Positions 17,302 to 64,000 of a stretch of 64,000 bases of DNA are shown here, piece after piece. A program made the position numbers and the translations under genes. This DNA is from Antedon mediterranea (taxonomy: Eukaryota; Animalia; Echinodermata). The DNA lies in the NCBI RefSeq assembly GCF_964355755.1, contig NC_092674.1, forward strand, positions 11,904,001 through 11,968,000, given 5' to 3'. The stretch's first letter is position 1, and each line of letters begins with the position of its first letter. Below the pieces are notes generated by a model. It was not told where the DNA came from. It saw only the letters and a program-made list of their open reading frames with translations, and made no database searches.

Positions 17302-17799
17302 TTAGAAGTCTGATAGATCTGAGTCTGAATCCCATGCACTTGTTTCAATTCCTCTGTTTTCCATTGCAGGAAATTCAACCTCAACATCATACTGGAAGTC
17401 GGGATCACCCGGCTTTTTCCTGTTCTTCTCGTAGCTATCATTCATTGCAGTTTTCTTTTTTTTAAGATCGTCATCGTCCAACTTGTTCAAGTCCTCTTCG
17501 GGGTCAATCTCATATTGTTTCTTTGCTGTGGCAAGACTCTCCTCCAGACTTGAACCATGTAGAACTGCCTGTATTATTCTCAGTAATTTCTCAATTTGAA
17601 ATTCACTGACATGTTGTAGGTATTGCTTATGTCGAGGGTTGTTCTTAAGTTCTGTTGTAAAGCAAGTGATATTTGTATTCTTGTTAAAGTTTCTAAGCGG
17701 CATTATTCTTTCTCTTAGTTTTTTTGAAGAATTTTCATATTTCAATATAAGCATCGGGGGTTCAACTCTGACCCCACATTTTTTCGGTGTCACTTCCAT
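17302..17799 (-). CDS. CEP19: Centrosomal protein 19
   Basis: KKCGVRVEPPMLILKYE, RIMPLRNF, LKNNPRHK, IDPEEDLNKLDD, DPDFQYDVEVEF and the WD...DF end match CEP19. The CDS sits in one exon; an acceptor at about 17833 implies a 5'UTR intron. Confidence 0.96.
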   Translation of the reverse strand: MEVTPKKCGVRVEPPMLILKYENSSKKLRERIMPLRNFNKNTNITCFTTELKNNPRHKQYLQHVSEFQIEKLLRIIQAVLHGSSLEESLATAKKQYEIDPEEDLNKLDDDDLKKKKTAMNDSYEKNRKKPGDPDFQYDVEVEFPAMENRGIETSAWDSDSDLSDF

Positions 17800-18230
17800 A
17801 TGGAATTAGGTCATCATAAATTTACAAAAAGGCTAAAATAAAAAAAAGTTCGAAGTTGTATTATTTTGGCATAGTATGCACTTGTCAAATTGTATGACCC
17901 ACTATATTACTACCGGGAGAGGTGTATCATTTAAGAATAATTATTGACGCAGGGGTGCATCATAAAACCTAGATGGTACGTCACATCAATGAACAATGGT
18001 GTGTCAATGTCCATCCCTTTACTAACCACCATATCATATAAACAATATGGTCACAGTGCGCCTAAATGGGTGCGCTAAGATATAAAAAATATCGGACAAA
18101 TGACGCACTGTTCCCGGGGGTTGTATAGTGGGTCGTACAATTGACAAGTGCATTATGTTGACATGATAGAGATAGAATGTTAATAATAATTTTATATATA
18201 AAAAAAACATTCTTTCAATAAGTTGGGCTA

Positions 18231-23102: not shown

Positions 23103-26100
23103 ATGGGTAGGTAGAGCTATTATGTTGCATTGCAATTTCAATTAATACTTGCAATGATTATCTTTTTAGTGATATCGACTAATCAGGTTAATCAGTACTT
23201 TTAGCAAATATAAGCTTTACAAATTTAAGGAATTTTTGTGCAGCATGATTGAAAATAAGCCAACATGTTTATAGGCCTATATGATCTGATTGTGAATGTT
23301 TTGCTTGTTTTACCATTTTTATATCGAGAAAAACGAGTTTCCATTTACACATTTTGATATATCGAACAAATAAAGATTTGATTTTATTAAACTGATTTAT
23401 TTCTAACGTTTACATTGATGTTTCTAATTATACATTTCGGAAAGGCGCAAAACATTTTACAATCTTTTAATTAGTTAAAGTCAGCTTTAACGGATTTCTT
23501 CTAGAGTTTTTCTAATTTTTGTCCTTGATTGTTTATTTTTATCATTTTTATTTGTTATTGTGATTACAATTTACACCATTGTTATTTTGGTTAAAATATT
23601 TTCTTTGTTATTAAATTGTACATACAAAAGTATATATAGTTAGGTTTAACGTTTATATAATAGGCCCATTTTTTACATAATTTAAGTTTAATGTAAGTAT
23701 ATTTAGCTAAAGCTTATTTTTAGAAATTCGGAAAGGTCTATCCGAAAATGATTTTCATTGATCGTAAGACATTTTAATGATTAAAATGTAACAAAATATG
23801 TTGAAAACAACACGTTTACAAAAACAGGATTGTGTTGTGTTGCTTTTAACTATAAGACATAGTTTATTTTAAAATCCTTTTTTTCAATCAGGACGGACAT
23901 TACCTCACCCAGTATCATGTCGAGTGTGCGGTGATAAGAGTTTTGGTAAACATTATGGTGTTTATTGCTGTGATGGTTGTAGTTGCTTCTTTAAAAGAAG
24001 TATCAGAAGGAAAATGCAATATACCTGTATCGGAAAAGGAAACTGCGTCGTGGATAAAGCAAGACGCAATTGGTGTCCGCATTGTCGACTTCGTAAATGC
24101 TTTTACGTCAAAATGAATAAAGCAGGTACGTAATAAATTGACCATAGATTAACAAATTAGGCCTATCTAAACTGGATATCGTGTATGTAAGATCAGCTCT
24201 CTTTTACTTTGTCTATTTGTTAAGCTTAAAATTACTTAATATTATGATTTAGGCCTTCTATTATTTTCCAAATGTTAACCTCATTAAAATACTAAATAAT
24301 ATGTAATAGTTATTTTATTCATTTCTAATTGGGGCCACTTATAATTGTACTTATTTAAGTTATTTATATACAAGATTTTTCAAAAAAATAGTTTTTCTTG
24401 CCACCGATACTAATTCATTTTCCAAAGCTTCTTCAGTTTATTTCATTTTATATCCTACTTATGAGTTTACTGAATTACATATTTTTGCCGGTGGATGCAG
24501 TAAAAGAAGTCGTTCTTCATGACAAAACAATATCAATTCTTCAGGACTTTCCTACATTATTCACACGCGAAAATGGTGTAGGCTACACAGTACAATTCAC
24601 GCGTACTATAAACATACCAGGCATCACGTCTACTTACTTTATTCCTCAATTCCGTTAGTGTTTTTATGAAGAAAAGATGAAAATCTCATCCTTCTGATTT
24701 CATTTGTTTCCTTTTTTATTTTTGCAAATACAATCAATTTATTTAACATCACTATTCTTTGTAAAAAACTATATATGTTGATGTTTTCTTCATTAGCTGT
24801 GCAAGAAGAAAGAGGACCACGCAAGAAAAAGGCCACAGTACAGAGCGTAAAGCCAACCAACAGTACCCAAGTTACACCGATTCAAAATAGAACACATCCT
24901 CATACGAAATATTCCGCAGATAGATCTAGAAATGAAGTTAGGTCGTCTGCGTTTGTGCCGTTCCAACCTTGGAAGCGGGCAGAACCGTGCAATCATAGTA
25001 TGGTTTCAAGGTCAATAGTAGGTCTACCAACAATGCTGCCCAATCATTCTAAAAATGTTCAATTCCTACAAGGTGGAATATGTGGAACTTACATGTCTTC
25101 AGTGATGACCCACCCTGACGCAACTCCATTTCCATCTGCAATGGCGTCGTTACTTCATGAGCAATATTATGAACGGCCAGGTAAGGTTTCCACCATTTGG
25201 AATAAATTTAATCGTTACAGTATGATAGAAACACTAGAAACAAGATAAATAATTAGTATTATCACTTATTCATCTACATTGTTTGATTTAATATATTTGA
25301 TAAATTATAAAATTATTTACATTTATCCCGTAATTGGCGAGTTACTCGCTGTTGGTTGCGTATAAAATGAAAATTAGTTACAACAAAAATTACTGGAAAA
25401 CAATATACAAAGTGAAATGTCAATGATTGTCGTCAAAAACAAACTTAATCACGGTTAATACGGAACGTATTCTGTTACAGGAAATTTAACAGAATACATG
25501 GAATGACAATTTCGATTAAAATTATAATGATTAAAGTTATCCCAAATATAAATAATATAAAATAAACAACAGTAGATTCGCACATTGTAGAACGTAAAGT
25601 AGAATTTACAACAATTCTAGTTAAATTTTCTGTGAATGTGTGTAGGGCGTATATGCTAAAACTAGTGCAATTTGAGGATTAAATAGTTACCGACCCGTTA
25701 CACTGTTATTGCATCCATCGTTAAAATCATATTGAAACTTTGTAATTAAAATTGGTCGTTTTTCTTTCCTGAGCTTTTAAAATAATGTAGTTTATTATTG
25801 AATCCATTGATTGTTTATACAACTAATAGAAACAATAAAAAAAAAATACAAAACCTTAATATTAATTTAGGTTATGGTGAGATACAGATGCACCCAACAT
25901 ACCCGGATGTTCATGCAATGCTAGTCAGCAGTACAGAAACCGATCAAGAGGCTCTTCGAGAAACTGCTTCGAAAATCCTTCAAATGTTGGTTGACTCGAC
26001 GTCTTCAATTTATGTGTTTCAAATGTTTGATAGAGATGATAGAATTATTCTTCTTGAAGATTCATGGCCTGAACAGTTTCTTTTTCACATTGCCCTGTGG

Positions 26101-28343
26101 CCGATTATAGACATGCACGCAGCAGTAACAAAGCTTAGTGTGAATGGAAGTTTGGTAAGTCAAGACTCATTAGCTGATAATTAGTAGGCCTATGTATGGT
26201 ATTTGAAACTTACGAAATGAAAGCTTGCAATATCCATACATTGCTTACTAAAATAAGTAGGTGGAATTCATTTTTTGGCTCAATATTACTGTTATTACTA
26301 TGTATGGGCCTATCTAAATATAAATATTAATCATTTTTAATGTGTATTGATTATTTGAGTTTCCTATCCATAACCGTAAGAAAGGAAAGCAAAACAAAAC
26401 CTTATAAATCATTAACTATTTTATATTATTTGTTTACGTTACGCGCACTCTCGATTTTAAACTAAACTCGTATTAAAAGTATTTAAAATACAACTATACT
26501 TGTATCTAACTGAATATACTCAGTTAGTATCTAGAGTGCCAGCTGCATAATCTGGTAATACAACTATACTTGTATCTAACTGAATATACTCAGTTAGTAT
26601 CTAGAGTGCCAGCTGCATAATCTGGTAATACAACTATACTTGTATCTAACTGACTATACTCAGTTAGTATCTAGAGTGCCAGCTGCATAATCTGGTAATA
26701 CAACTATACTTGTATCTAACTGACTATACTCAGTTAGTATCTAGAGTGCCAGCTGCATAATCTGGTAATACAACTATACTTGTATCTAACTGACTATACT
26801 CAGTTAGTATCTAGAGTGCCAGCTGCATAATCTGGTGCCGAATTGAGACCTTAACCGCCGCACAACATAGGCCTATTTATTTGTAATTGTAGTTTTTTAT
26901 AACCACTAGCCATCAGCGCAAGCTCGGTGGTCTAGAGGTATGAACGCCAGGCTAAGTGATCTGAAGGTCGTGGGTTCGAGTCCCACCCGAGAACTAATTG
27001 CGAATTTTTTCGCAAGTATTCTCAAATGTACTTAGTATAAAGTACAAATTACGTCAGAGTAGTACAAAACATCTAATTAATAACATGTTTATTATTATTC
27101 CAATATTGACACACTTAGTGCATATTACAAAGTGTTCTACAACAAACCTAATTTTGTGGATAATTATATTAAAATTTCTATCCCATAATTCCCTATACTG
27201 TTAAGAATATAACAGAACATACGATGCATTAAGAAATACTAATTGTTTTACTTTTAGAAAATACCCTCAAAGTTCATTGACGATGTGCGTGACATTATTT
27301 CAAGAATAAGATCTCTAAACCTGAGTGCGCCAGAGTTTGCTTTTTTAAAGACCATTCTGCTCCTGAAGCCGGGTAGGTCAACTTAATAAAACAACTTAGG
27401 CATACGCTAATCAAAAGTCGACTTTTTGAGTAATAATAATACCATGTATACATAATTTTAAAATATTGTTGATGTTAAAAATGTGTGTAGTTAATTGGAC
27501 GCTTTCTTGTAAAATGTAATTATTATTTTTTTTTATTTCTGTGCACTGTTCTGGGTTGACCAACTAGCATAGGTGTTTAGCGGTCTTTCCTTGCCTTTTA
27601 TATTTCGTTTTGTCATTTTATTTGTGTATTGTATATGGCAGAAATTGAATTTAGGGCAATTAGAAACTAACAAAGTACGTCACCTACATGAATTCAAATC
27701 CAGAGAGAGAAAATGAAATTCTAGTCTACACTCAGTAAAATTGTGTTTGCAAATACCAATTGGCCACTAGAGGCTTTCCACACCCGAGGATGGCTTACTG
27801 CCGTATGATCGGCTTCAGGAAAGATTTCGGTAGGACAACATTCTCGGAGTTTGCTAACAAAAGAAACTTAAGTAGGCCTATAAGACGTCAACCAATCAGA
27901 TTTCGCTATGTCAGCTTCAACGTTGTGGAATTATCTAATCCGACAGTGTGCTAATTTTTAGCTAGCCAGTCACATTTTCCAATAAGTTTTTTTCATTTAT
28001 AAAACTATCCTCCTTTTTAAAATTTATAGTACAGCGACTTGACAGCCTTGTAATTCCCTAGGCTCAACTGAACTATTCATGTGCTTTGTTTTTAGAGTCG
28101 CATGGAAAATTGCGAGAAACCAAAAAGGCAGAAATGCTTCGAGACCAAGCCCAAGTGTTTCTTGCTCAATTTGAACAGGACTTGAACCCACAGTCACCCG
28201 CAAGGTTTGGCAAGCTTCTTCTGGGATTACCGTGTCTAAAACAAGTCGATAAACAGACGCTAGAAGAAGTATTCTTTGGAAGAACTATTGAACGATCTGA
28301 ATTACAGAGATTGATGGGTCCTAGGGATCTTCATAGACCATAA
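23103..28343 (+). CDS. NR2E-family orphan nuclear receptor (HR83/NR2E5-NR2E6 type)
   Basis: Exons 23103-23106, 23892-24125, 24797-25180, 25871-26154, 27258-27372, 28096-28343; all GT-AG and phase-compatible. DBD: [38 protein letters not shown]...[13 protein letters not shown]...[12 protein letters not shown] motifs [23 protein letters not shown] and [12 protein letters not shown]. Confidence 0.92.
26487..26836. repeat. 70-bp tandem repeat x5 (intron 4 of the nuclear receptor)
   Basis: CAACTATACT recurs at 26491, 26561, 26631, 26701 and 26771. Units differ at one position (A in copies 1-2, C in copies 3-5). Confidence 0.97.
26922..26992 (+). pseudogene. tRNA-like sequence (pseudogene or SINE head)
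   Basis: TGGTCTAGAGG A-box, GGTTCGAGTCCC B-box, CTCGG/CCGAG acceptor-type pairing. Anticodon arm is irregular. Confidence 0.6.
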
Positions 28344-42000: not shown

Positions 42001-45000
42001 TAACGTATTGTATCAAAGTAGTATTGAACTGAATGTTGCTAGCTTTATTTCCTTTTTTTAAATGCTTGATTTTTTTTAACATGAGTTTGTTATGTTCTTA
42101 TTTTTTGCTTTTTTTAAAAACTTGGTTTTACATAATGGCAATCACCACTAATAAATTGCTTCATTAATATTTTAAACAGCATGAATAACAATAATTATAT
42201 TAAAAATATCTATAATGTTATCAAATAACTTCTAGTTTAAAAATCCAAATGATGATTCACAAAACAAGACTTTCTGGCTATGTTTAAAACTGTAATAAAA
42301 GATAAAATAAATACATATACATTGCACTTGAATATAACTGGCTGTTTATATAAACACATTGGCATTTTAATGCACTTGCATAAAAGCCACACAGTACAAA
42401 AGCTACTGTACGTTGCCTTTGTAAATGTAACGTTAGATTTTTTTTCTCAAAAATTGTTTGTGCACTTAAACATAAATAAACTATTTTGCTCAGTTTTTGT
42501 GCATTTTCATTTTTTAGGAGTTACGATTCGAGATATGACATTGGTTTACTTGCTGCTTCTTATTGGATTGTATATAACACCGATATTTATCAAATCTCCT
42601 TGTATTATGGATTACAGTGACACACCTGATAAACCACTTATATTTGCACATAAAGGAGCTGAAATGGTAAGTAAGCTAGAATAGTAATTTACTTGATTAT
42701 ATTTTGTTTATATTAATAAATTCACAAGCAAACAGAGATAAAAACAGGCTGAAATAGAACAAAACAAATGGTACAATATCTACAAACTGATATATTTACA
42801 TTCAAGATCTACAGTAAATCTAGCCTACACATTTTATGGCAATTAAACTCAATTTCTAGAGGTTTCTTTACTAATGCAGTCCAGCTGTGGATCACATGAC
42901 CAGACTAGGCTTTAAAGCTAAAACTAACTCACCGTAACTCACCGTATACCACTCTAAATGAGTGGTGCAAGAGGCTGGTGGGCCGGTCGTGGCCCTCTAT
43001 TAAAACTGCAAACTTTAATGTTTTAAAACTTAATTACTGTAAAAAATAACATTGTATACTTTTAATTCTTAATATATTTACATATTTTAATAAATTGTTC
43101 ATGATATTAGAATTCTTTGATTACATTGTTTGTACTTGTACAAACAATAAAGTTAATAATTGATTTAATACTATTTAAAAAATAAAATGTTGCCTTTTTA
43201 TGCCATTTCTATATTTTGTATGACGCTTTCCATTATTAGTACTATACATTCATATTTTTCTTCACATTTTTCACTTTTAAACTTTTTAGCTCGCACCGGA
43301 AAACACAGATATGGCATTTCGTATAGCATTGGATGACTATAAGGTGCATGGTATTGAGTCTGATGTTAGAATAAGGTAGTGATGCAATTTAATTTATATG
43401 TTCTGTACAGTGTATTAAAAATAATAGTTCATTCTTATATAGCGCATATAAGCAAGTTCTCAATGCGCTGAACATTATTACCCCAGACATTGTTTTAATA
43501 TATAGCCTGCTTCATCCATCTGTTAGATCAGCGTTCTGCAAACCTTTTATTTTTCGGCCTAAAATCCTGTCCTCAGGACCAAGCCGCGACCCAACTGCCC
43601 AGATGAAAACTGAGATCATGAGGTAATAAAAAAGAGTCCGCCACAACTCAGCCCCACCATGGTTGGTGAGGTAAGAATATTTTTGGAATATGGACCGTGG
43701 GTTCTAGAAAATTGATCCAATAAAAAAAAATCAGCGCAGGGTTTCCCTTTTTAACATACACGATACATATCACTGTGTCATGTTTCAGTTCATACATCGC
43801 GATCAAAATTTGGCCGCACATATCAATTGCGTTAGGTATGCTTTCAAACATTTTCAGCAAGATCAAACCATAATATTATATATAATAAAGGTTCTTACAA
43901 TCTGAAACTTGTATTGTTGTATTGGTAATGTAATTATTTTTGAAAAAAATGTTTGGCGGACACATGCCAACCATGGAGCTATATAGCTCCATGGTAATAC
44001 AGTGTCAAATTCAAGTTGAAATTGACACAATTTTCATACTGTAGTTTTTTTATCAAATTTTCAGTCGTGACGGCGTGCCATATGTAATGCATGACAACAA
44101 TTTACGACGTACAACAAATGTGAAGGATATTTTTCCAAAACGCTACATGGAGTCTGCAGATAACTTTACTATTGACGAACTAAAGTCCCTCAATGCTGGT
44201 TCCTGGTTTATGACGGTATGTGCAAAAAACAGTTATAGCAATTGTTTATGGGTTTAAGGCTTCCAAAAAAGCTTCCATCATAAGAATGCTTTTTGGAAAG
44301 ACTAGTGTAATATCAAAATTGGATTATTACCAATTGTTAAAAGTGAAAAAAAAAGGAAGTACTGTATGTCATTAAATGTTATATGTCCGTTGTAATATAG
44401 AACTTCAATTTGTCTAAATTATTGTTTCCTCATTATTGTTCAACATTTACAAGTGTGCAAATAGCACATGTAGTTGGAAGGGACTTGTACCTAATGTACA
44501 CATTTTATGGCAAGTAAAATTGTTGATTTAAATTTTACAATAATTTGTAAACATTTATTGGGTCATTTTGCTCATATGAGTGGAAAGAGCGGTATGTTCC
44601 ATGCCTCATGTTGTAGAGAAATTATTCAAGAGAAACTACCAAGGCCTATTAGTGCTCTGATCATAGGCTTCAGTCAGCCATATGGGACAAGCCTTTTGCA
44701 AAATAATGTGTACTCTTTGTAAATGTTTGAAAATGTTGAAAATTGTGAATGGTTCCTTGATATATTGAAATAATTATAATTTTTTACAATATAATACTAT
44801 ACAGTATTATGTTATAATAATCAAATAATTGTTTAATTTTTAATTTCTAAATATTTTATTTTATTTTTTAAATATTTTACCCTCATAGAGAGACCCTTTT
44901 TTAACAGCCGGGATGTTGTCGTCAGAACAGAAAGATCATTACAGATCACAGAAAATACCCACAATGCAAGAGATGATTAGAATGGTTTTGAAACGCAACA

Positions 45001-47701: not shown

Positions 47702-50700
47702 ATAAAATATGCATTTTCAATAATATTTGAACTATAAAGTATACACTAGACTTTTTGGTAATGTTTACAACAAAAATGAAGTGCAAATACTGTAGCTCAA
47801 ATAGACAACTAAGTTAAGCCTTTTCCTGACAGATCACAGCCATCACCGGTAATATAACAACTATGATGTTCACCGAAACCAGATACTAAAATTGTATTTT
47901 ATTTATTTCCCATTTATATTGAAAGGTGGTAAAGACAGAAATGATTTTAATATGAATATTAAATCATTTAGAGAGAAAAGGGCTTTAGTTTCAGGACACT
48001 GAGCTTGCCTTGATTTGATCTTATGTCTGGCTGCAATAAATACCAACAGTACTGTATGTACATATTCTCCAAGGCGCACGGTATCTGTTAAGGGGTGTGG
48101 AACTGATCGTGTCACAGCCACAGGTAAACCCTTTGATCTCAAGAGCACATCCTGTTGTTAGATTGCTTTAATTTATCTAAGGAAACTGAACTCTGAAAAA
48201 CTAAATTAGCAAACAGAATGGATGATGATGTACTATAATATAGTTGTAGTATAGTCTTCAGGTCACTTATAACACTGTTTTTGTAGCACTTATTTTGAGC
48301 CAAGCAAGCTACAGATGAAGGCCCAGCTTCTTGTTGTGATGTCACAGACACGTTGACGAGCTTATGTTTCAGGATGGCAGACCAATAAGACTGTACATAC
48401 TGTGACAGTGAAAAAGGAATACTCCTCACCAATGTCTGTTAAATTACATATTGTTACTGCAATGAAAGCTTGCCTATTTAATTTGGCTTGTCTTCCCATT
48501 CAAATCATAAACATTATTGTATATTATATTAACACACCTGATTGTATTCTTGCAATTTGATTGGTTAGTACGCATCTTTTAGAATTTTGGAATTTGCCCT
48601 ACCTAAACTAAAAAGTGATATCTATGATAATTAACACGTTCTAATGCATGTTTTAGCTTTTTGTAGAATTTTTGCCATGCAATCAATCATCGCGTTTGAA
48701 AATCAACTTGTTGTGCGCACCATCTATAACTTGGAAAGTTTTGAATGGCCTAGCAATCGTCAATTATTTATGATAATAGAATAAAAGTAGGTGTAGAGAA
48801 TATTTCTTTTGATGAAAAATGCCTCGCCTCCTTTAAAGGTAGAGCAGTTAATTTTTCAACTCATAAAATATTGATTCTCACCATCCAACTCATACACATT
48901 CATTTGTAAGTAAGATGTATTTGTTATGGTTTATAGCAGTTGTAGACTAATTTACACTTACTATTTACACGGATTAATTGTGTTTTTTTAAATATTTTTA
49001 TTTCTTTGTATAATGATAATAATAAGTGTGTGCAGTGATAATATCGCTATTTATATATATTTTATATCCTTTCAGTTTCACTTTAATAACAATAATAATC
49101 CTGTTTTGAATACGGTTTATATTTTATAGTTATTCTTTAAAAAAAAATATTTTATCAATTTACAAAGTAACAAAAGAATTAGTATACAATTTACATACAG
49201 TAATTATGTATTTCTTAAAAGATGATTAAAATAGAAAGTCAGAAATATATGTATATTTGATATGAAATATAACGGTAATATAATCAGTTTATTTTATATA
49301 TATAAAATTGCCATGTTATATATAAGATATTTTAGACTGGGGTTTACTGTTCTTAAATTTAAAATTTATCTCCAATTAATTTTTGACAGTTGTAATGAAA
49401 AATGAGTGCCGTGTAAGCCCCTCCCCTTTTTTTCTTGAAGATGATTAAAATACAAGTCAGAAATATATGTATATTTGGTATAAAATATAATAGTAATAAA
49501 ATCAGTTTCTGTTTATAGGTTAAGATAGGAAATTTAGTTTTTAACTGGGTAACTATTTGTAATAGAAATACTATTTTCTTATGTAAAATTCATTTGAATT
49601 ATATAAGTATATGAGAGTCGATTTTGATAAATTGTTTATCTTTAAAAACTAAAAAAGAGCGGCTTATTTCGCTCGCTCCACTAGAAAATTAAGTGGGGTT
49701 ATTATTGTTATTTTATAATAAACAATAGAATCCTTGAGCTACCCTTTAGGCATGGCTTATTAACTTTCTCTTTTAAGAGGATATAAATGAATAACATTCT
49801 TTGGTAGTGCTTTCATAATGCTATTCATAGATCGTTGTACATTTTTATAACAAGTAAACATTTGAATTACATCATATTCTAAAATTAGTAACATTTAGTT
49901 AATCATTTCAATGCTCCTTATTATTACATAAATGTACATATTTGCTTCTACAGATATGAGTAACCCATGCTTTGAGATTTTAAATTGATAGGAAGTTTCT
50001 GCTATTTTAAAAAGTGGGTTTACTATTACGTGTTGATTTCATTTTCCACTCATTCAGTTCACAGCCTAGCTTCTACTGTTTATTGGCTTCAGGGAAGAGT
50101 GAAATTACAATTAATTTCATTCTTCCCTGGGTTTACTATAGGCAAAATAATGTTTTTTAATTGTTTATTTACACGATTTACCTAAAGATTCTGTAAAATA
50201 ATTCAGTTCAAATTGTTGCCGTGTGTATGTATATATAGTACAATTCCTTGCTACTAACACAGCCATTTATACATTATACATAATACACATGTGCTGATGT
50301 GTGTGTAGGACTACTATTAACACAATGCAAATTAGACTAGCCATAATGCAGCATTACATTTTTGTATTCAGTCTTAATTAAGAATTTCAATGAAAAGTCT
50401 AGATAAAACAGAAATGTTGGAAATAAATATGATTATTTTTAATAACTGTTTGTATATTTTAATTCATATACATTATACTTGAACTGTCAAAACAAAGGAA
50501 CTAAGGATGTGGTTTTTACTCCAGTTGTCTTTTTCATTCTTAGTATGATAGTTTCATCAAACACAAACAAATTATGCTTTATAGACAGAAATTAGTCTTT
50601 CATCACTTATGAATTCAAACACATTTTAGACCACAAGTTATGTTTGCATTTGAAGTTGAAAATTTCAAGCTTTTGATAAATTAATTTCCTTGTTTGTACA

Positions 50701-51681
50701 GTATTCACAATATTAGTCACTTTTTTAAAATGCTGTTTTTTTTAACTTTCATACTTTCCTATGTATTACATTACTACTAATAAAGTGATATAGTATAGGA
50801 GTAAATATATATAAAGTAAATAATATAGAATGATAAATACAATAATTTGTTTTATTATTTTATTTTGTATTTGTTTAAAAAGCTAGGCTATACAAACAAT
50901 TCCAGTTGAAATACAGTAGGAAGAAACACAGTAAAAGAACAGACATCATTTTTAGAACTCTAATTTTATTTTACTAAAAACTATTGTATTATTAATTATT
51001 ACCACTCCATATGAAATTTATTTATAATGATATCTTTATCTATCACACTCACAGTAAAAATTATCAAATTAAAAACAATTTATAACTTTAAAAAGAAAAC
51101 TGGAGACATACAGTAGTTGTAAATGTCAATACAAAATTAGATTATTATAATATTCTGTATAAAAAATATAGCTTATTTTCGTTGCATCAATAAATTCTAA
51201 TTTCTTTGTATTTAATTGGTTTTTTTCATCATTGCATTAAACTGAATTGCAATATATGTACGATATAAAAAATATATTTTCACACACAAAGAAAGACTTA
51301 AAAACGATTGAGATTTTACAGGGTTAATATATTAAAAACGACATTTTAAATTTGATTACTTTGCTGAATGTTCAGTTATTACATATCCGCCTGCCAATTA
51401 CTAATCGAACTCATTATGTATGGGCCTGTAAAACAGATCCGTTAACTGGTCTGTTATAGCCATTCAATTAAATTTGAACAGTTTCCCTCCTGATGTTTTA
51501 CCTATTGTTTATGATATACTGCTGTTGTATACTAAGGTTCAGGTAACGGTATTTATATTATCCCATTCATTTATCAGACTCCTGAAAATCACACATTTTC
51601 TTATAACTATTATAAATATTAATCTCTCCAGTAAAGCAGACTAATTTTTTTTTCCCAACAGAAAACATTTTCTTTAAGGCT

Positions 51682-51800
51682 CAAAAGGTCCCAAGGGGTA
51701 GTGCCGAATGTTTACTCTAGCTATCTAACCGTTTCAAAGGTCCCAAGGGGTAGTGCCGAATGTTTAAGATACAGTACTCTAGCTATCTAACCGTTTCAAA
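51682..51800. repeat. Tandem duplication (~52 bp) with a small insertion in copy 2
   Basis: AAAGGTCCCAAGGGGTAGTGCCGAATGTTTA...CTCTAGCTATCTAACCGTTTCAAA occurs twice. Confidence 0.9.
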
Positions 51801-51909
51801 ATACATTGCCAATCTATAGTATATTGCTCTTCTACTAACATTTTTGTTTGAGGCCTAATATGACTACCTGTACTTTACTACATATACTGTATACGTATTT
51901 TCAAGTAAT

Positions 51910-54900
51910 TTATCGTGGTTTAACTATTTTAAGGAATGCTCCTGGAACGTTCTTTGATGGGTCTTCTGATTGAATTAGTGTCGCATCGCCATTCTCTATC
52001 GCAAGATAAGTATCTATGCAAAAAAGAAATAATAATCCTGATGTAAAATCAACAATTAGTTTTCATTAATGTAAATTTGAGATTGCATTTCATCAGCTAG
52101 TGACAAAAGGAGAAGATTTTAGTAGCCATGAAGGCTAATTTATACAGACGAGATGTATCAGCAGGCGGAAAACAAACAATATAGAATCTATGTCTTCATA
52201 TGACCATTTACACAAAATGCAGAGTGGACCACCGGTGTCTGTTTAAATTGGCCTGAATAGTTATAACACCCATTTGAATCATTAATTTGTATCATGAGCT
52301 GTGCAATATCTTCTCCCATTTCAATGCATTTTGTGTGCTATTGCATGGTCAGCTTTTTGCAAACTGTAATGGCTATGCCTAACATATCACTACTAGATGA
52401 GTATTAATATAATAAGTAATATTTTATGTATAATTTTCTTACACTATTTTTAATACAGTTATGGTAAAAACAGCTTCTTCGGGAGAACATTTAAATTAAT
52501 TTGACATACCTGGTTTATTGACAGCTTGAAACAGCCAACTGTTTGTGTTACTCTCAGAAATTAAGTAAAAGAACCGATTATCATCAGGCTTCAACTCGAT
52601 CACCTGATTATTTAAAAGGTCACTACCATTCTTTAAAAAAAAAAAATTCAAAATCATGTTCGACATTAAACTCCACACATATTAACATTTTGGTTTTTAC
52701 TGTTCCGCATTAAATGCGTACTACCATTTTATAACATGTTTTGGAGTGAATACTACAGATCACGTGGTCTCCAGGAGAAACGTAGCTCGCATTATTCAGA
52801 ATTTAGATGCAAATAATCATCACATATATCATGAATTGCGATGGCACATACATACTACTACTACTACAACCATGGCAATTTCAGTCAGATAAAGATGAAG
52901 AGGTGAAGCCGAGTGAAAATAGAACCTTATCTCATCAAATTATTTGTACCATTGCACTAATACTTGCACAATATTTGTATATTTTAGTGAAATATAGAAT
53001 TATTATGAATGAGAACAGCAAACAAAATACATTTAAACAAAATAAAATAGGATGTTTATAAACTTTAAAACAAAAGATATCAGACAATCAATCTAACAAT
53101 ATATACTGTAAAGTGTAAACCATATTACCTTTAGCTCTATATTCTGACCACTGGAACTGGATGTGATGCACGATTCAGAATCCTTGTGTACTACTGCACA
53201 TACCTGCTTTCTCTCATCATTTAAAAACTTATTGACAACAAAAAGTCCTGAAAAGAATAACATAATAGAACCGTTTTTAATATTGTGATATGATTGTTAT
53301 TTGTAAAAATAATTATTAAAACCAAATTATAATAATTTCAATTTCTTTTTATAACAACATTGTTATTCAAACCATAAATTCTATACAAATATTTACATTA
53401 TTTTATGTTTTGAGATACACCCCTATTAAGAAGAAATTTGTCTGTGAAACCTAGGGGAGCAATATTTGTTTTAACTTTACTGACAACCATTTAGGGGACA
53501 CACCAAGAGAACACTTTGTTGGGTTCTACACTAACTGTGCATTTTATACGTCATGAGGTAATTTCCCGATTGATCGTAATCAAAACGGTACTGGGTTTGG
53601 TCTACTAGCGTTCCTGCTCCCAACCAGTACATCCATTCATAGAAGCCTTAATGAAGTATCGTAAGCCTACCTGGTGGTGGCCATAGAACGGTCCCGAGAT
53701 AACGACTATACTTCGGCTTTAGTCGATAGAAGATTGAATAAATTGTTAGAGATAGAGTATACGATGTTATGATTATGTGTAGATATGTGATTTGTTCTTT
53801 ATATTCCAATGATGTTATGTATTTAATAAATTTGTTATATCAATTAATTAAATTATCGTAGATTGCATATTATGCGATGAATATTATTTAATAAATTTTT
53901 GATATTATTATTATTATTATTATTCTTTTATTTCATATAAAACATCAAAAAAACATTAGACACCACCATGCCACAAGTTACCACTAGTGGCCAAAGGCCA
54001 GATTGTGGGTAACTTTTACATGCATGTACCAAGACCAATAAAAATATACAAAATAGAAACATACAAAATAATAAATTATACAAAAATGAGTGAAAATCAG
54101 GCGTTAAGCAGGCGGATAAAATAAGGGATTGGGCTGTTACTGAAATATTATTTATTAGATATTATTAGATATATTATTATTATTATATTAATAAAAAAGA
54201 TATTTGTTAGTATAAATTAAAAAATATAGATATAAGGAAGAAAAGCAAAGAGATTATGGAGCGGCTGTACCAGAATATACAACACTAAGTATTGTAAAGT
54301 TAATATATTAAAAATTTAGGCGATCTTGTCAAAGATTATAATCTGTAAAACTTTATGGTCCAACAAATTACCCCAATAAACCACACCACCAATAATGAAC
54401 CACAGCAAACCCCAATGAACCACTGTACAACGAATTACCCCAATGAACCACAGGGTATCCCACCAATAATGAACCACAGCAAACCCCAATGAATCAGTGT
54501 CCGACGAATAACCCAATGAACCACAGCGTATCCCACCAATAATGAACCACAGCAAACCAAAATGAATCAGTGTCCAACGAATTACCCCAATCAACCACCA
54601 CAGTGAACCAAAATGAACCACAGCGTATCCCACCAATAATGAATCACAGCGTATCCCACCAATAATGAACCACAGCAAACCCCAATGAATCAGTATCCAA
54701 CGAATTACCCCAATGATCTACAGCGTATCCTACCAATAATGAACCACAGCAAACCCCAATGAATCAGTGTCCGACGAATTACCCCAATGAACCACAGTGA
54801 ACCCCAATGAAGCACAGCAAACCCCAATGAATCAGTGTCCGACGAATTACCCCAATCAACCACAGCGTACCCAAATGAACCATGACGTACCCCACCAATA

Positions 54901-55371
54901 ATGAACCACAGCAAACCCCAATGAATCAGTGTCCGACGAATTACCCCAATGAACCACAGTGAACCCCAATGAAGCACAGTGTATCCCACCAATAATGAAC
55001 CAACAGCAAACCTCAATGAACCAGTGTCCGACGAATTAGCCCAATCTAATCAACTGCATCGGATCCCAGACTTATCTCAAAAAGCATGGGATGGTGATCA
55101 TTAAACGTGACTTAGTCTCTTAGGCCTATGTCTTGAAATGGTCACTGGTTCATTCGCATCGGTTCATTAGGATTCGCTGTGGTTCGTTGGGGTAATTCGT
55201 TGGACCACAACTTATATAAGCTTCTGACAAATTGAATGTTCACAAACCATCTTGTCCTTCAATACTCTTGGTTGCACATAACTTGTTTGCATTGTTCACT
55301 TTTAAATACTCAGCTTTTGTTCCTGGTCTGTAAATCATTAGATGTTGTGAATCCACTTTTAATAGGGACAT
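51910..55371 (-). CDS. Leaderless 155-aa beta-trefoil cytokine-like protein (interleukin-1 family-like)
   Basis: Exons 55371-55248, 53247-53129, 52630-52510, 52013-51910; canonical AG/GT sites, intron phases 1,0,1, no stops. Protein: MSLLKVDSQHLMIYRPGTKAEYLKVNNANKLCATKSIEGQDGLFVVNKFLNDERKQVCAVVHKDSESCITSSSSGQNIELKNGSDLLNNQVIELKPDDNRFFYLISESNTNSWLFQAVNKPDTYLAIENGDATLIQSEDPSKNVPGAFLKIVKPR. The gene model is strong; the family call is from by-eye alignment. Confidence 0.75.
53900..54140 (-). mobile_element. LINE 3' terminus
   Basis: Minus strand encodes NSPIPYFIRLLN (conserved LINE ORF2 C-terminal motif), then AATAAA and an (AAT)n tail. Confidence 0.6.
54357..55206. mobile_element. TIR element whose left arm is expanded into a complex minisatellite
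   Basis: Starts GGTCCAACAAATTACCCCAAT and ends TTGGGGTAATTCGTTGGACC. 54360-55050 is built from AATGAACCACAG / CGAATTACCCC / ATCCCACCAAT modules. Confidence 0.75.
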
Positions 55372-55409
55372 GTTTCCTAACTGCAAATATAAAAAAAAAA
55401 CAAAGTTTA

Positions 55410-56870
55410 GGATCAGGTGCCGTTTTCGGCCACCTCGACTTGTATGGACTATACCATTATTATGATAGGGGTGTGGTGTATTATGTTTTATGTAGAGAAG
55501 GGTGTCTATTGAATGGGAAGACAATACAATTGTTCTGTTATGTAACCTACAATACAGAACATCAAAAACTAGCAAGCATGTAATTTTTATAAGGCATGTT
55601 ATTATTAGGTACTGTGTTACGGAATGCCAAGATTTTGTAACAATATTAACTATATAAGTAGGTAACTTACTTACTATATTTATATAAAAACTAAACTAAA
55701 CACTACAGTATAATCAAAATTAAAACATATTAAATACTATGTTAATATGCCTATCTGGATTTAAACACAATAAATTTTAGTACATATCACAATCGGAAAT
55801 AAAAAATCTTAAATACTACAGTACAATCGATATTAAAATATCCTAAATACTACATTACAATCGGTTAAATTACCAAAACTCTATAATGTTGTGAAATATG
55901 TAAAAGAATGTTGGCAAATCGGCCCAATCCTATCGGTAGATAAATCATATTTTTTATTTGCAAGGGATAAATCCAAACAACATGGATTTGAACCTAAGAA
56001 CCTGGAATCGGTAGACGAGTATAATTGAAGATTCATTGACATATAATTTAATGTTTTTTGTTTGTTTTACTGATCACCTGATACATTTACATTTAATGCT
56101 AATGTAAAACGAATAGTAGATACAGAAACTATGGAGGAATTCCTCCATGCAGAAACAAACTAATAACAAATTCATTGACATAATTTTATGTTTATTTGTT
56201 CTACTGATTACCTGATACATTTAATGTTAAATGTAAATAAATGAAACGATTGTAGATACAGAAACAAAATGGTAACAGATTCATGGACGACTTAATTATA
56301 TGTATTTTTGTTTTACGATGACTCGACAATAGTTGGACTTATAACAATGATTATTCTCTGTACCTTTCTGAGATTATTCGATTTACCGATTATGGCAACA
56401 ATTTTCTTGAACTAAACATAAATAAAACGAAAGAAATAAGGATTGATTTTCGAAAACAAAATTGGTCTGACAGTATACTAATATTAATTAAAGGAAAGGA
56501 AGTAGAGATTGTTAACAATTATAAGTATCTGGGAGTAGTGTTTGACTAAAGTTCAATATCCACCTTAGGGAATCCACCTAATATATCCATATTATTAGGG
56601 AAGGATACCTACAAATTATATAGAAAAGTGCCATAATACGGGCCATAATATACTGTATTAACTTGAAAACTGAAATTAATTCTACAGCGTGTAGGGCGTA
56701 GTTGTTTTCCCTTTGTTGCTGAAACATAATGCACTAAACAAAAGAACAAAAGCAGCAGTATTTTAACACATTAGCACACTAAATTAATAAATGGGACACC
56801 CCTATTTTCCCATCTTTTTATAATGGTATAGTCCATACAAGTCAAGGTGCCCGAAAACGGCACCTGATCC
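55410..56870. mobile_element. Mutator-like (MULE) non-autonomous element with perfect 9-bp TSD
   Basis: TIR GGATCAGGTGCCGTTTTCGG.CACCT.GACTTGTATGGACTATACCATTAT at both ends. CAAAGTTTA at 55401-55409 and 56871-56879. Confidence 0.9.
56300..56548 (+). mobile_element. LINE reverse-transcriptase fragment (Rex1/Babar-like)
   Basis: YDDSTIVGLI, then NNFLELNINKTKEIRIDFRK...VEIVNNYKYLGVVFD* (decayed YADD motif and the following RT region). Confidence 0.75.
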
Positions 56871-57142
56871 CAAAGTTTATATCTATAGAAAATGTTGATC
56901 AATATAAATAATGATATAAAAAAGTGATTAAAAAAACACTTTTTCTTAATTGAATGAAAAAGAATTCCATTCCACATTTAATACTTAATTTAATATTAAA
57001 CAGGTTTATTGTCCAGTCTTGTATTGTATTTTGTATACAAAATAAACTGTCATTTTTAGTTCCTGCTGGTTGACAGATAAATCAGGCAGTTGTTAAAAGA
57101 TACATCAGGGAGTTGTTAAAACATACATCAGGGAGTTGTTAA

Positions 57143-57771
57143 AGCCCCATTCCCTACGTTTTTCAGATCTAATTTAAGATCACAAACTATATTTAATGTA
57201 AAAATAATACTATAATATGGTCCTATTGCGATAACTTTTTTCGTCTTTAAACGGTTAAAAATGTGAAAAATAAATTGATTCTAATAATTATAGCGGCCCG
57301 CTATAAATCCCAAAATGCATTACGCGCGGATTGATATTTTTGTTTTTCACCTGTAATTCGCCCACTTTTCGATCGATCGTGAAGCCAAAACAAATGGAAG
57401 ACTCCTAACTTTTCAGCGAAAATACCGGGTTTTCCCCAATTTGTATCAACGGAGTCTGGCAAAAATAGAAAGACAATTAATGCAGCAATTATACAACGTC
57501 AGGCTAGGTATATAGCTAGCGTACGATGTTCGTACGTTATCGATGTTTACCAGCTAGGCCTACAAAACTAAGCCTAGCTGGGCTAGGCCTAAGACCGTCC
57601 ACGAGAGGTCGATCGCCGCGAGCTACTTAGGTAGTGCATTGTTTCTCACTTTTTATCATAATTTACCATAAAACGTACATTTAAGACAAGGAATGACATG
57701 GTTTAATGTTTTTAAAGTGATATATATGTATTAATTTCCAAAAAACGTCCAAAATTGCAGGGAAGGGGTCT
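57143..57771. mobile_element. Kolobok-type MITE (copy 3, longest)
   Basis: TTAA|AGCCCCATTCCCTAC ... GCAGGGAAGGGGTCT|TTAA. Carries about 80 bp (about 57413-57493) missing from copy 2. Confidence 0.88.
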
Positions 57772-58431
57772 TTAAATCCTGTGGTTGATACTGAGTTAAC
57801 TGTCATAAGTACAGTACCTATCTGTCAACCCTTTACACATTTAAATTATAATACTTAGAGGTCTAGATACTAACTATCTATGTACTATTATTTAATTAGT
57901 AATTTAGATTGGCTAGTTTATGCCATGCACTATTATCATCGCCAGCGTTAGAACTACTACTACTAGGCCTAGGTAGAAGTAGTAGTACTCGGTCAGTACT
58001 AGTACTCTAGGCTAGTTAGTAGGCCTCTACCCAGCTAGAGAAGTACAGAACAGTACTGACTGAGTACTACCAACTCCCTAGCTCGCATTTTACTATCATC
58101 TACTAGGCGCCTAGCCTAGTCCAATTGGCAGGCAGACATGCCCTTTCAGATAGACTACTACTACTAGTGAGGAGTACTATACTACTACTACTAGCAGAGA
58201 GAGGCCTAGTAGGCCTAGGCCTAGATAGGCCTTCCTTGGCCTGCCTAACCCAGCGTTAGCTGATCACTTCGGCCGCCAGAAGTTAATCATGTTACTTGTT
58301 AGGCTAGGCCTAGTATAGGGGGCCTAAGTAGAAAAAAAAACATAACAACATACATTATTGATACTATTGGATCAGGTGCCGTTTTATTATTATTACTGTC
58401 AAGATTCTTCTACTGCTGTTCGTCTGATTAC

Positions 58432-58535
58432 CAATGCGAATCTCCACATTTTTAGTTGACAAAAGTAATATTTATAGTTTTAATTCCTTTTGTGATGTAC
58501 ACACACGTGCGTGGGGATGATATGCGTCACGTGAC
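58432..58535 (-). promoter_or_regulatory. Candidate promoter/first exon of the IL-1-like gene
   Basis: Palindromic GTCACGTGAC (58526-35), a second CACGTG, TATAAATA on the minus strand (58476-69) and a GTAATC donor at 58431. Confidence 0.35.
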
Positions 58536-63232: not shown

Positions 63233-63391
63233 TCATCGTTCTTGGACAAAGACAGTTTCACGTGGTACAAGACCAGCCTCTTCTAATGTTTTATCTGCAT
63301 CCATGTAAGATAGTTGACGCCTAGGATAATTGGTAACAAGCTCATACCTTTCACTGGAAAATCCATCCTTTGCCACACGTGTAATTAAATC
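63233..63391 (-). CDS. UBXN7: UBX domain-containing protein 7, last coding exon (rest of gene beyond window end)
   Basis: After a TTTTAG acceptor: DLITRVAKDGFSSERYELVTNYPRRQLSYMDADKTLEEAGLVPRETVFVQER*. Matches the recalled UBXN7 C-terminus (ERFELLTNFPRRKLS...TLQEAGLCPQETVFVQER). Not in the ORF track. Confidence 0.9.
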   Translation of the reverse strand, partial: DLITRVAKDGFSSERYELVTNYPRRQLSYMDADKTLEEAGLVPRETVFVQER

Positions 63392-63609: not shown

Positions 63610-64000
63610 GATGTCTGTATACTAGAGGCGTCCGCATACAAAAAATATCCGTATATGAGAGGTGTCCACATGAGAGGTGCCTGATATGAGAGGAGTCATC
63701 ATATGGGAGGTGTCCGCATACGTGACGTGTCCGCATTCGTGAGGTGTCCACATAGGAGATGAGTCATCATATGGGAGGTGTCCACATACGTGATGTTTCC
63801 GCATATGTGAGGTGTTTGCATGTGAGGTGTTTGCATGAGAGGTGTCCGCATGAGAGGTGACTGCATATGAGAAGTGTGTGCATATGAGAGGTGTCTGCAT
63901 ATGACGTGTAGCATATGAGGACGGTGTTCGCATACAAGGTGTTTGCATATGAGGTATCCCCATACATGTAGTGTCCGCATATGAGAGGTTCCCAGATTTC
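63610..64000. repeat. ~17-bp minisatellite (CATATGAGAGGTGTCCG)
   Basis: Degenerate tandem copies run to the window end, inside the last intron of UBXN7. Confidence 0.9.

What the first reader, a model, noticed from the sequence alone, without database searches (positions are those of the whole stretch)
51910..55371. Hidden 4-exon gene encoding a candidate invertebrate interleukin-1-family cytokine
Seen: four short exons with canonical splice sites and compatible phases (1,0,1) join into an open 155-aa frame with no signal peptide; the ORF track shows only fragments. Recalled knowledge: mature IL-1beta is about 153 aa and aligns by eye along the whole length. Pairs: KLCATKSIEGQD / ELKALHLQGQD; LFVVNKF...QVCAVVHKDSESCIT...NIELK / VFSMSF...PVALGLKEKNLYLSC...TLQLE; DNRFFYL...WLFQAVNKPDTYLAI / EKRFVFN...LEFESAQFPNWYIST (IL-1 signature region). 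The phase-1 intron before the LFVV strand and the phase-0 intron after IELK sit where the last two IL-1beta introns lie; the third intron is extra. Inference: a beta-trefoil IL-1-like cytokine in an invertebrate, a group where such ligands are largely missed by sequence search. Structure-based work may already cover homologues, so novelty must be checked.
Basis: partly seen in the sequence, partly recalled or inferred. Interest (0 to 1): 0.95.

Follow-up and report, generated by a model that had tools for sequence, protein, structure and literature searches.

The report
Unlisted feather-star interleukin-1-like gene
This is a real four-exon feather-star gene, shared with a second feather-star species, whose small protein is predicted to fold like interleukin-1 and likely acts as an immune alarm signal; invertebrate interleukin-1 relatives were published in 2025-26, so it adds a member missing from that catalogue rather than a new family.

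Summary
Four minus-strand exons with GT-AG introns of phase 1, 0, 1 give an open 155-aa frame, identical to an existing database model that its source names 'uncharacterized protein [Antedon mediterranea]'. An orthologue in Anneissia japonica (LOC117100764, 55% identical) conserves all four exon segments. Both proteins are predicted beta-trefoils. IL-1-family proteins mostly rank first in feature and structure searches, but FGF is close for this protein and my own models are weak (pLDDT 42-48). The novelty claim fails: invertebrate IL-1s (IL-1anc), including a PDZ-less crinoid one, were published in 2025-26 (PMC13736523), and this scan noted such genes on other DNA. What is new is small. LOC117100764 is not among the three Anneissia IL-1s in that paper, so this is a fourth, bare-trefoil crinoid member, with FQA/FKA in place of FES and none of the published marker genes recognised in the window. 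The intron phases do not separate IL-1 from FGF, since elephant FGF5 also has phases 1, 0. Splice junctions were not shown directly. Immune induction, release and receptor binding are untested.

The parts
55248..55371 (-). First coding exon, codons 1-41 plus 1 nt; GT donor, phase 1
   Evidence: 27/41 identical to the orthologue
55372..55380 (-). Nine bases before the ATG, preceded by a pyrimidine-rich acceptor (first exon base 55380, alternative 55376). An upstream exon is likely; it was not located
   Evidence: sequence only; upstream exon inferred
53248..55247 (-). Intron 1, 2000 nt, phase 1; holds a 68-74-nt tandem array and dispersed repeats
53129..53247 (-). Second coding exon, 119 nt (codons 42-81)
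   Evidence: 21/40 identical to the orthologue
52631..53128 (-). Intron 2, 498 nt, phase 0; an alternative in-frame acceptor lies at 52603
52510..52630 (-). Third coding exon, 121 nt; carries the DNRFF motif (residues 98-102) and FQA (115-117) at the FES position
   Evidence: 18/40 identical to the orthologue
52014..52509 (-). Intron 3, 496 nt, phase 1; lies inside the IL-1 signature region
   Evidence: an X1 contig ends at 52013
51910..52013 (-). Last coding exon, codons 122-155 and TAA
   Evidence: 19/34 identical to the orthologue
50123..51909 (-). Possible 3' untranslated region; five AATAAA hexamers at 51022, 50970, 50864, 50856 and 50169; ATTTA not enriched
   Evidence: covered by X1 contigs, whose strand and end are unknown; counts; extent inferred

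Best explanation
This four-exon gene encodes a 155-residue protein with no signal-peptide-like stretch, conserved in two feather stars, that is predicted to be an interleukin-1-family beta-trefoil and likely works as a ready-made alarm cytokine. Shown: gene model, orthologue, absence of a PDZ domain or pro-piece in the annotated protein. Predicted: beta-trefoil fold nearest to IL-1/IL-18/IL-33. Inferred by analogy with IL-1anc and vertebrate IL-1: the protein would be made on free ribosomes and stay in the cytosol. With the predicted trefoil starting within about 10 residues of the N-terminus it would need little or no caspase processing. It would leave the cell when the membrane is breached (damage or gasdermin-type pores) and would bind an Ig-TIR (IL-1R-like) receptor on coelomocytes or epithelia to switch on NF-kB/AP-1 immune genes. 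It most likely arose by loss of the PDZ-containing front half from a duplicated IL-1anc gene. Odds: IL-1-family descent about 0.8; this agonist mechanism about 0.5.
For: Atlas features: the two best clusters are IL-18 (PF00340 on 79-82% of members), score 0.93, 178 and 176 of 256 features shared; for the orthologue ranks 2-3 are IL-18 (0.92; 168 and 170). Atlas models (pTM 0.84, pLDDT 0.81): best row IL-1, TM 0.79 over 145 residues; orthologue rows 1-3 are IL-1alpha, IL-18, IL-33 (TM 0.74, 0.75, 0.68), with no FGF among the 10 rows shown. Own two-sequence model against 48,161 PDB representatives: ranks 1-6 are all IL-1 family (Z 6.5-5.5, rmsd 3.2-3.7, 98-106 aligned), first FGF at rank 12 (Z 5.0, rmsd 3.8, 98 aligned). 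In the second look, ranks 1-31 of 50 are IL-1 family (top Z 7.1, rmsd 3.6, 104 aligned), first FGF at rank 40 (Z 5.2). Best sequence hit in the PDB is IL-33 (E 0.028; E 0.04 with the profile). 7 of 9 positions of the IL-1 signature are met from F115; 9 of 5000 shuffles reach that. The DNRFF motif recurs as D-x-R-F-F in several listed IL-1anc proteins (SparIL-1.2, PclaIL-1.2, PvanIL-1.2, PmaxIL-1.2, MtroIL-1.1; by eye). Four trefoil exons fit the 'three to five' of PMC13736523, and phases 1, 0 match the last two IL-1beta introns (PMC4880838). That paper shows immune induction for some IL-1anc genes and allows that some need no processing.
Against: No Pfam IL1 (PF00340) hit at E up to 1; IL33_bt scores 14.7 bits against a cut-off of 27; the orthologue hits no trefoil family. 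The [FL]ES motif is absent in both proteins, and the orthologue meets only 5 of 9 signature positions, which 1780 of 5000 shuffles reach. In the Atlas structure search FGF4A is row 2 (TM 0.74 over 133) and its family score (506) is above the best IL-1 score (499). The orthologue's top feature hit is an unnamed bacterial cluster. My models are poor (pLDDT 41.7 and 48.1); no Foldseek match reaches E 0.001 and its rank 1 is PURA; no Z reaches 8 and the nearest non-IL-1 trefoils lie about 1 unit below the best IL-1 row. The intron phases are shared with FGF5. None of the published marker neighbours (GCC2, EIF2A, ESD, IL-1R) was recognised among the ORFs scanned. ATTTA is not enriched downstream (10 against 9.9 expected) and the only kB-like site within 8 kb upstream lies next to a repeat. 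Some sea-urchin IL-1anc paralogues are not induced by infection. Ligand-receptor binding has not been shown for any IL-1anc.
Confidence: 0.5

Rival explanations
1. It is an IL-1-family protein but a brake or an intracellular regulator. It would occupy the Ig-TIR receptor without recruiting the co-receptor, like IL-1Ra, IL-36Ra or IL-38, or act inside the cell.
For: In mammals the bare, pro-piece-free members of about 150-160 residues include IL-36Ra, IL-38 and intracellular IL-1Ra (recalled); IL-1Ra, IL-36Ra and IL-38 are among the fold matches. PMC13736523 raises an antagonist role for PDZ-less cyclostome IL-1.1. The conserved change of FES to FQA/FKA could mark a changed surface. No ATTTA excess downstream.
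Against: Best matches are IL-18, IL-1alpha, IL-1beta and IL-33, all agonists, though the differences in Z are within the tie margin. IL-36 agonists are also short (recalled). Fold cannot separate agonist from antagonist.
Confidence: 0.2
2. It is a non-cytokine beta-trefoil (lectin-like, protease-inhibitor-like or actin-binding module) that resembles IL-1 only through the shared fold.
For: Ricin-type, fungal inhibitor and bacterial trefoil clusters score 0.89-0.93 by features and TM 0.63-0.76 by structure. RicinB_lectin_2 gives E 0.13. A ricin-like repeat protein, P0003, is one of only three non-self hits among 1.84 billion representatives (E 8.9e-05).
Against: No Q-x-W/F motif and one Trp in each protein, whereas ricin-B trefoils repeat QxW (recalled). 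Ricin-type and fungal clusters share only 104-114 of 256 features against 165-178 for IL-18. Aligned lengths are shorter (86-93 against 98-106). Fascin-1 ranks 29th (Z 4.4, rmsd 3.5, 88 aligned).
Confidence: 0.12
3. It is a highly diverged, leaderless FGF (FGF1/2- or FGF11-14-like) rather than an IL-1.
For: FGF4A is row 2 in the Atlas structure search with the highest family score (506). Ancestral Fgf genes have two core introns (PMC11733497), and FGF5 has phases 1, 0 with a 104-nt middle exon, close to the 119-nt exon here. FGF1 and FGF2 are leaderless and about 155 aa (recalled).
Against: No Pfam FGF hit at E up to 1 for either protein, although FGF cores are usually easy to detect (recalled). 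No FGF cluster among the 10 feature rows shown for either protein, nor among the 10 structure rows of the orthologue. FGFs rank below all six IL-1 representatives listed. Both proteins are net neutral or acidic (K+R 18 against D+E 19; 17 against 22), unlike heparin-binding FGFs (recalled).
Confidence: 0.08
4. The 155-aa model is only the C-terminal part of a longer IL-1anc. One or more upstream coding exons (pro-piece, PDZ or signal peptide) would splice onto the acceptor 9 nt before the ATG.
For: A strong acceptor lies just before the ATG and the frame is open across it. Most IL-1anc proteins have an N-terminal PDZ, and several original annotations in Table S2 lacked their 5' end. A TATA-like box (58476), an ATG (58449) and a donor-like site (58432) would add 6 codons in frame.
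Against: The Anneissia model starts at the equivalent Met. No longer relative scored among 3127 candidates of 287-2000 aa (weak evidence by the tool's own note). The next gene's last exon (UBX domain, 63236-63391) limits the space to about 7.8 kb, much of it repeats; no PDZ hit was seen, but short exons there were not scanned.
Confidence: 0.1

Closest known systems
Anneissia japonica LOC117100764 (P0005; RefSeq 'uncharacterized protein')
   Same: 55% identity over 97% of the length, same start, same FxA variant of the FES position, same predicted fold. Very likely the orthologue.
   Different: Eight residues longer, mostly a C-terminal tail; weaker signature match (5 of 9). Not named, and not found in any held paper or in the supplements of PMC13736523. 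Its gene structure and neighbours were not examined.
IL-1anc family, above all PDZ-less AjapIL-1.1 (LOC117117896, 170 aa; Fontenla-Iglesias et al. 2026, PMC13736523, Table S2)
   Same: Crinoid, leaderless, trefoil only, similar length; by eye the same order of motifs (strand-8 FF, FES-position strand, P-x-x-Y-L-A). Trefoil in four exons, within the published three to five.
   Different: A different gene: AjapIL-1.1 did not score in the homologue search whereas LOC117100764 did. AjapIL-1.1 keeps FES; this gene has FQA. Most IL-1anc carry a PDZ domain. No GCC2, EIF2A, ESD or IL-1R recognised in the window. No computed alignment to AjapIL-1.1 was made.
Vertebrate IL-18, IL-33, IL-1alpha/beta, IL-36/37/38 (Pfam PF00340, PF15095)
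   Same: Best feature, structure and weak sequence matches; no signal peptide; intron phases 1, 0.
   Different: 8-15% identity in structural alignments; no Pfam call; no pro-piece; a third, phase-1 intron inside the signature region. The lean towards IL-18/IL-33 lies within tie margins and shows no orthology.
FGF family (Pfam PF00167)
   Same: Beta-trefoil; two core introns with phases 1, 0 in FGF5; TM 0.74 to FGF4A.
   Different: No Pfam or feature match, shorter structural alignments, no basic excess.

Membership tests
IL-1 superfamily / IL-1anc | Beta-trefoil fold | tested here: met
   Atlas models pTM 0.84; all 10 structure rows shown for the window protein are trefoil-containing clusters or unnamed parts of them, TM 0.72-0.79; same picture for the orthologue. 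Predicted, not solved.
IL-1 superfamily / IL-1anc | Twelve strands in IL-1 order | tested here: inconclusive
   Own best model shows 9 strands of 3 or more residues; residues 1-32 and 139-155 are under pLDDT 50. The Atlas model's strands were not shown.
IL-1 superfamily / IL-1anc | Structurally closer to IL-1 than to FGF, ricin-B or fascin trefoils | tested here: inconclusive
   IL-1 ranks first, but margins are small (TM 0.79 against 0.74; Z 6.5 against 5.4 and 5.0) and the FGF family score is higher. Leans towards met.
IL-1 superfamily / IL-1anc | (F/L)ES motif in strand 9 (described as 'largely' or 'often' conserved) | tested here: not met
   FQA in the window protein, FKA in the orthologue; the position aligns to IL-33 FES. 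Several listed IL-1anc proteins also lack it by eye (PclaIL-1.2, ArubIL-1.2), so it is typical, not obligatory.
IL-1 superfamily / IL-1anc | IL-1 family signature (pattern as printed in PMC4880838) | tested here: inconclusive
   No full match. 7 of 9 positions in the window protein (9 of 5000 shuffles), 5 of 9 in the orthologue (1780 of 5000).
IL-1 superfamily / IL-1anc | Trefoil in 3-5 exons with two central introns of conserved phase and position | tested here: inconclusive
   Four exons, phases 1, 0, 1; IL-1beta ends 1, 0. The paper's figure with positions is not held, position equivalence is recalled, and FGF5 shares the phases.
IL-1 superfamily / IL-1anc | No signal peptide | tested here: met
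   Highest N-terminal hydropathy 0.65; simple scan only; conditional on the 5' end being complete.
IL-1anc (strict architecture) | N-terminal PDZ domain | tested here: not met
   No PDZ in the 155-aa or 163-aa proteins. The paper counts PDZ-less members in the family, so this places it only in that subset.
IL-1anc | Microsynteny with GCC2, EIF2A, ESD or an IL-1R gene | tested here: inconclusive
   Neighbours recognised in the window are FAM124, CEP19, a nuclear receptor, a GDPD and a UBX-domain gene (15 window segments scanned, out of 96 ORFs listed plus one added exon). No genome was held to look further. The paper notes IL-1 genes outside the conserved loci.
IL-1 superfamily | Induced by immune challenge, released, and signals through an Ig-TIR receptor | not testable with these tools
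   No challenge data or receptor sequence was available.
FGF family | Pfam FGF core similarity | tested here: not met
   No PF00167 hit at E up to 1 for either protein.
Ricin-B lectin trefoils | Repeated QxW motifs (recalled definition) | tested here: not met
   No Q-x-W/F in either protein; one Trp each.

The most novel reading that the evidence does not exclude
Crinoids keep a separate, conserved IL-1 lineage that is born mature: trefoil only, no PDZ, pro-piece or signal peptide, FES replaced by FxA, at a locus of its own. It would be an invertebrate counterpart of the processing-independent alarmins or of the natural receptor antagonists, showing that invertebrates had already split IL-1 into gated and ungated (or agonist and antagonist) forms. 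It would also show that PDZ-anchored surveys miss a whole layer of such genes even in genomes they screened.
Probability: 0.3. Interest if true: 0.55.

Novelty: new member of a known kind. Interest (0 to 1): 0.3.

Why it matters
The big claim, that invertebrates have IL-1, is already in print. This gene matters in two smaller ways. It shows the published catalogue is incomplete even for a genome it screened: the Anneissia orthologue LOC117100764 is missing, as one would expect from a search that started from PDZ domains and the FES motif. And a bare 17-kDa trefoil needs no guess about a cleavage site, so it is a convenient reagent for the open step that the paper names, a direct ligand-receptor test in an invertebrate, here in an echinoderm class used in regeneration research.

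Tried and rejected
Whole-genome work (paralogues, receptors, wider synteny): no genome is held for this window. RNA: no holder on record as RNA was listed, which is no evidence either way. Contig depths (309.8 for the contig ending at 52013; 3.6-6.6 for two intronic contigs) are flat per contig and were not used to claim an expression level; bin depths fit exon cover only loosely. phmmer over 1.84 billion representatives gave three non-self hits (P0002-P0004), all short matches to repeat proteins, rejected as relatives. Search for longer, fused relatives: none among 3127 candidates (weak). Single-sequence AlphaFold2 failed (pLDDT 41.7) and was not used for fold searches. Nanobody hits in the PDB sequence search (E above 0.08) are treated as chance. 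No second copy in the window by tblastn (other hits E above 1). AU-rich pentamers and kB-like sites: no signal. The 146-aa splice form was considered and ranked second. Literature: no paper on an Antedon interleukin among the 5 listed (listing only); LOC117100764 in 0 papers; one search for FGF/IL-1 intron comparisons gave nothing useful and one for crinoid FGFs was not followed up. No complex prediction was run: no receptor sequence of this animal was in hand. No tree or computed alignment with the published IL-1anc proteins was made, so placement within that family is open.
Full report
The observation. Reading 50500-57000 and listing splice-like sites gives four coding exons on the minus strand: 55371-55248, 53247-53129, 52630-52510 and 52013-51910. 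The introns are 2000, 498 and 496 nt, all GT...AG, with phases 1, 0, 1 after codons 41, 81 and 121. The frame is 155 codons plus TAA. A search with the first exon returned one protein among one candidate, P0001, which its sources call 'uncharacterized protein [Antedon mediterranea]'; it is identical to the joined frame. The gene is therefore hidden from an ORF track but already annotated. A second acceptor at 52603 would remove 9 residues.

Is it a real gene? A full-length search gave 2 hits among 13 candidates: itself and P0005, 'uncharacterized protein LOC117100764 [Anneissia japonica]', 163 aa, 55% identical, E 2.5e-42. All four exon segments are conserved (27/41, 21/40, 18/40, 19/34), both models start at the same Met, and the orthologue has residues opposite all 9 positions of the long form. 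Conservation across two crinoid genera is the strongest evidence for a functional protein. Read evidence is indirect. Five runs hold the region and none is on record as RNA. In X1, guessed to be RNA, a 535-letter contig fits 51737-52013 and stops at the intron-3 acceptor with 241 letters unplaced, whereas contigs of X2 and X3 continue unspliced to 53410 and 53507. 241 equals exon 3 (121) plus exon 2 (119) plus the one base that exon 1 and intron 1 share, and a separate X1 contig starts at 53219, exactly 30 bases before that branch point. This is what a spliced transcript of the long form would leave in an assembly graph. The three junctions remain to be shown.

What is the protein? Sequence alone says little. 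Pfam gives no family over its cut-off; IL33_bt scores E 0.03 and RicinB_lectin_2 E 0.13, and the orthologue hits no trefoil family. The best PDB sequence hit is IL-33 (E 0.028; residues 93-143), which puts FQA on FES (E 0.04 with the two-sequence profile). HMMER over 1.84 billion representatives found three other proteins, all short matches to repeats. The ESM Atlas holds confident models of both proteins (pTM 0.84). By features the window protein's two best clusters are IL-18 (0.93; 178 and 176 of 256 shared); by structure the best row is IL-1 (TM 0.79, 145 aligned), followed by FGF4A (0.74, 133 aligned, with the higher family score, 506 against 499) and ricin-type clusters (0.72-0.76). For the orthologue the first feature hit is an unnamed bacterial cluster, then IL-18; by structure rows 1-3 are IL-1alpha, IL-18 and IL-33, and no FGF is among the 10 rows. 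My AlphaFold2 models are weak (pLDDT 41.7 alone, 48.1 with the orthologue). With the better one, Foldseek has no match at E 0.001 and ranks PURA first, but every match with probability above 0.9 and an interleukin title is IL-18, IL-33 or IL-36. VIA-align over 48,161 representatives ranks six IL-1-family chains first (Z 6.5-5.5, rmsd 3.2-3.7, 98-106 aligned), then a bacterial trefoil (5.4), with FGF8b at 5.0 and fascin at 4.4; the second look ranks IL-1-family chains 1-31 of 50. No Z reaches 8, so each result alone is weak; they agree in direction. The IL-1 signature printed in PMC4880838 is met at 7 of 9 positions (9 of 5000 shuffles), but only at 5 of 9 in the orthologue (1780 of 5000). Neither protein has [FL]ES or a QxW motif, and neither is basic. 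I put IL-1-family descent at about 0.8.

The intron argument. IL-1beta genes end in phases 1, 1, 0 (PMC4880838, passages), and PMC13736523 reports two central trefoil introns of conserved phase. The first two introns here fit; that they sit at the same strands is my recall, as the figure is not held. But ancestral Fgf genes also have two core introns (PMC11733497, passages), and elephant FGF5 has 364 coding bases in exon 1 and a 104-nt exon 2 (PMC2754481, passages), which is phase 1 then phase 0. The phases support a trefoil of the IL-1/FGF group, not IL-1 in particular.

Surroundings. Pfam calls in the window are FAM124 (9062-10021), CEP19 (17302-17805), a nuclear receptor (23873-28343), a GDPD-family gene (hit at 44045-44257) that converges on this gene, and the last exon of a UBX-domain gene upstream (63236-63391). 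No second trefoil copy lies in the window. GCC2, EIF2A, ESD and IL-1R, the published marker neighbours, were not recognised, but only 15 segments were scanned and no genome was held. An unchecked scan note places a PDZ-type IL-1 gene 6.68 Mb away on the same piece of this genome.

Mechanism. Shown: a conserved, leaderless, trefoil-sized protein with no PDZ. Inferred: it is made in the cytosol in nearly mature form, is released when membranes are breached, and binds an Ig-TIR receptor to drive NF-kB/AP-1 genes (0.5). PMC13736523 shows induction of several IL-1anc genes in lamprey, sea urchin and anemone, caspase cleavage of one sea-urchin protein, and states that ligand-receptor binding remains to be demonstrated. 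Nothing here tests induction: ATTTA counts are at background and the one kB-like site upstream lies next to a repeat. Rivals are an antagonist or intracellular IL-1 (0.2), a non-cytokine trefoil (0.12), an incomplete 5' end (0.1) and a diverged FGF (0.08).

What is known. Fontenla-Iglesias et al. (Nat Ecol Evol 2026, PMC13736523: abstract, sections 4, 6, 7, 9, 11, 20, part 1 of 2 of section 12, and parts 2-5 of 7 of supplementary file 4; preprint PMC12338702: passages) describe IL-1anc across Eumetazoa. They started from PDZ-domain proteins and the (F/L)ES motif and say very divergent members may have been missed. They list three Anneissia genes: LOC117117896 (PDZ-less), LOC117117911 and LOC117106586. 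'Antedon' occurs 0 times in the main text and in the 7 supplementary files held; LOC117100764 occurs 0 times in those files and in 0 papers of the library. Figures are not held and subscription papers are not searched. PMC12108812 (passages) names 'F-F' and 'FES-PG-WF' as family motifs; this protein has the first and a degenerate second. PMC7144542 was read in passages and gave no phase values. Earlier notes of this scan report similar PDZ-less or unlisted genes in other invertebrate genomes; they are unchecked, I had the paper before reading them, and no note matched this sequence or place.

Verdict. A real gene and a good catch from raw sequence; most likely a PDZ-less member of the published invertebrate IL-1 family, and a fourth crinoid member that the catalogue lacks. 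New member of a known kind; interest 0.3.

Noticed in passing
window 58560-58430 (minus strand): A cluster of promoter-like motifs about 3.1 kb upstream of the ATG: E-boxes at 58533 and 58509, a CRE-like site at 58529, a TATA-like box at 58476, an ATG at 58449 and a donor-like site at 58432. It could be the gene's first exon; spliced to 55380 it would add 6 codons plus 3 in frame. Motif names are recalled; no read support was seen.
   Followed up: partly
window 54386-55205: A 68-74-nt tandem array in intron 1, with one inverted partial copy at 55161-55205 only about 45 nt from the exon-1 donor; it could pair with several array copies in the pre-mRNA. It explains two spurious ORFs (54316-54717, 54705-55049).
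   Followed up: partly
window 55402-55471 and 56809-56878: A 70-nt inverted pair (87% complementary, 1337 nt apart) whose inner arm ends about 20 nt from the exon-1 acceptor; possibly the ends of a non-autonomous DNA element.
   Followed up: no
window 23873-28343 (plus strand): A nuclear receptor gene (zf-C4 E 1.5e-24, two weak ligand-binding-domain hits) with an unusual DGCSC P-box; from recall this points to the NR2E group (HR83/NR2E5-like), not tested.
   Followed up: no
window 17302-17805 and 63236-63391: CEP19 and a UBX-domain gene whose end resembles UBXN7 lie 46 kb apart. From recall the human genes are both on 3q29, a few Mb from IL1RAP on 3q28; if so the linkage is old. Not tested.
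   Followed up: no
ESM Atlas cluster: A Bacteroidota cluster of 51 proteins (218 aa, automatic name 'UpxY family', no common Pfam) scores 0.92-0.93 by features against both crinoid proteins; perhaps an unrecognised bacterial beta-trefoil family.
   Followed up: no
window 9062-10021 and 17302-17805 (minus strand): FAM124 and CEP19 homologues each have almost the whole Pfam domain in one open frame.
   Followed up: no
window 51684-51800: A short direct duplication (31-nt identical cores 52 nt apart) just downstream of the stop codon; all listed contigs break here and one X1 contig carries 17 gap letters in the adjacent stretch.
   Followed up: no
window 56800-58000 and 63648-63989: A very high-copy repeat (highest contig depth in all four runs) and a 15-17-nt tandem array near the window's end.
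   Followed up: no
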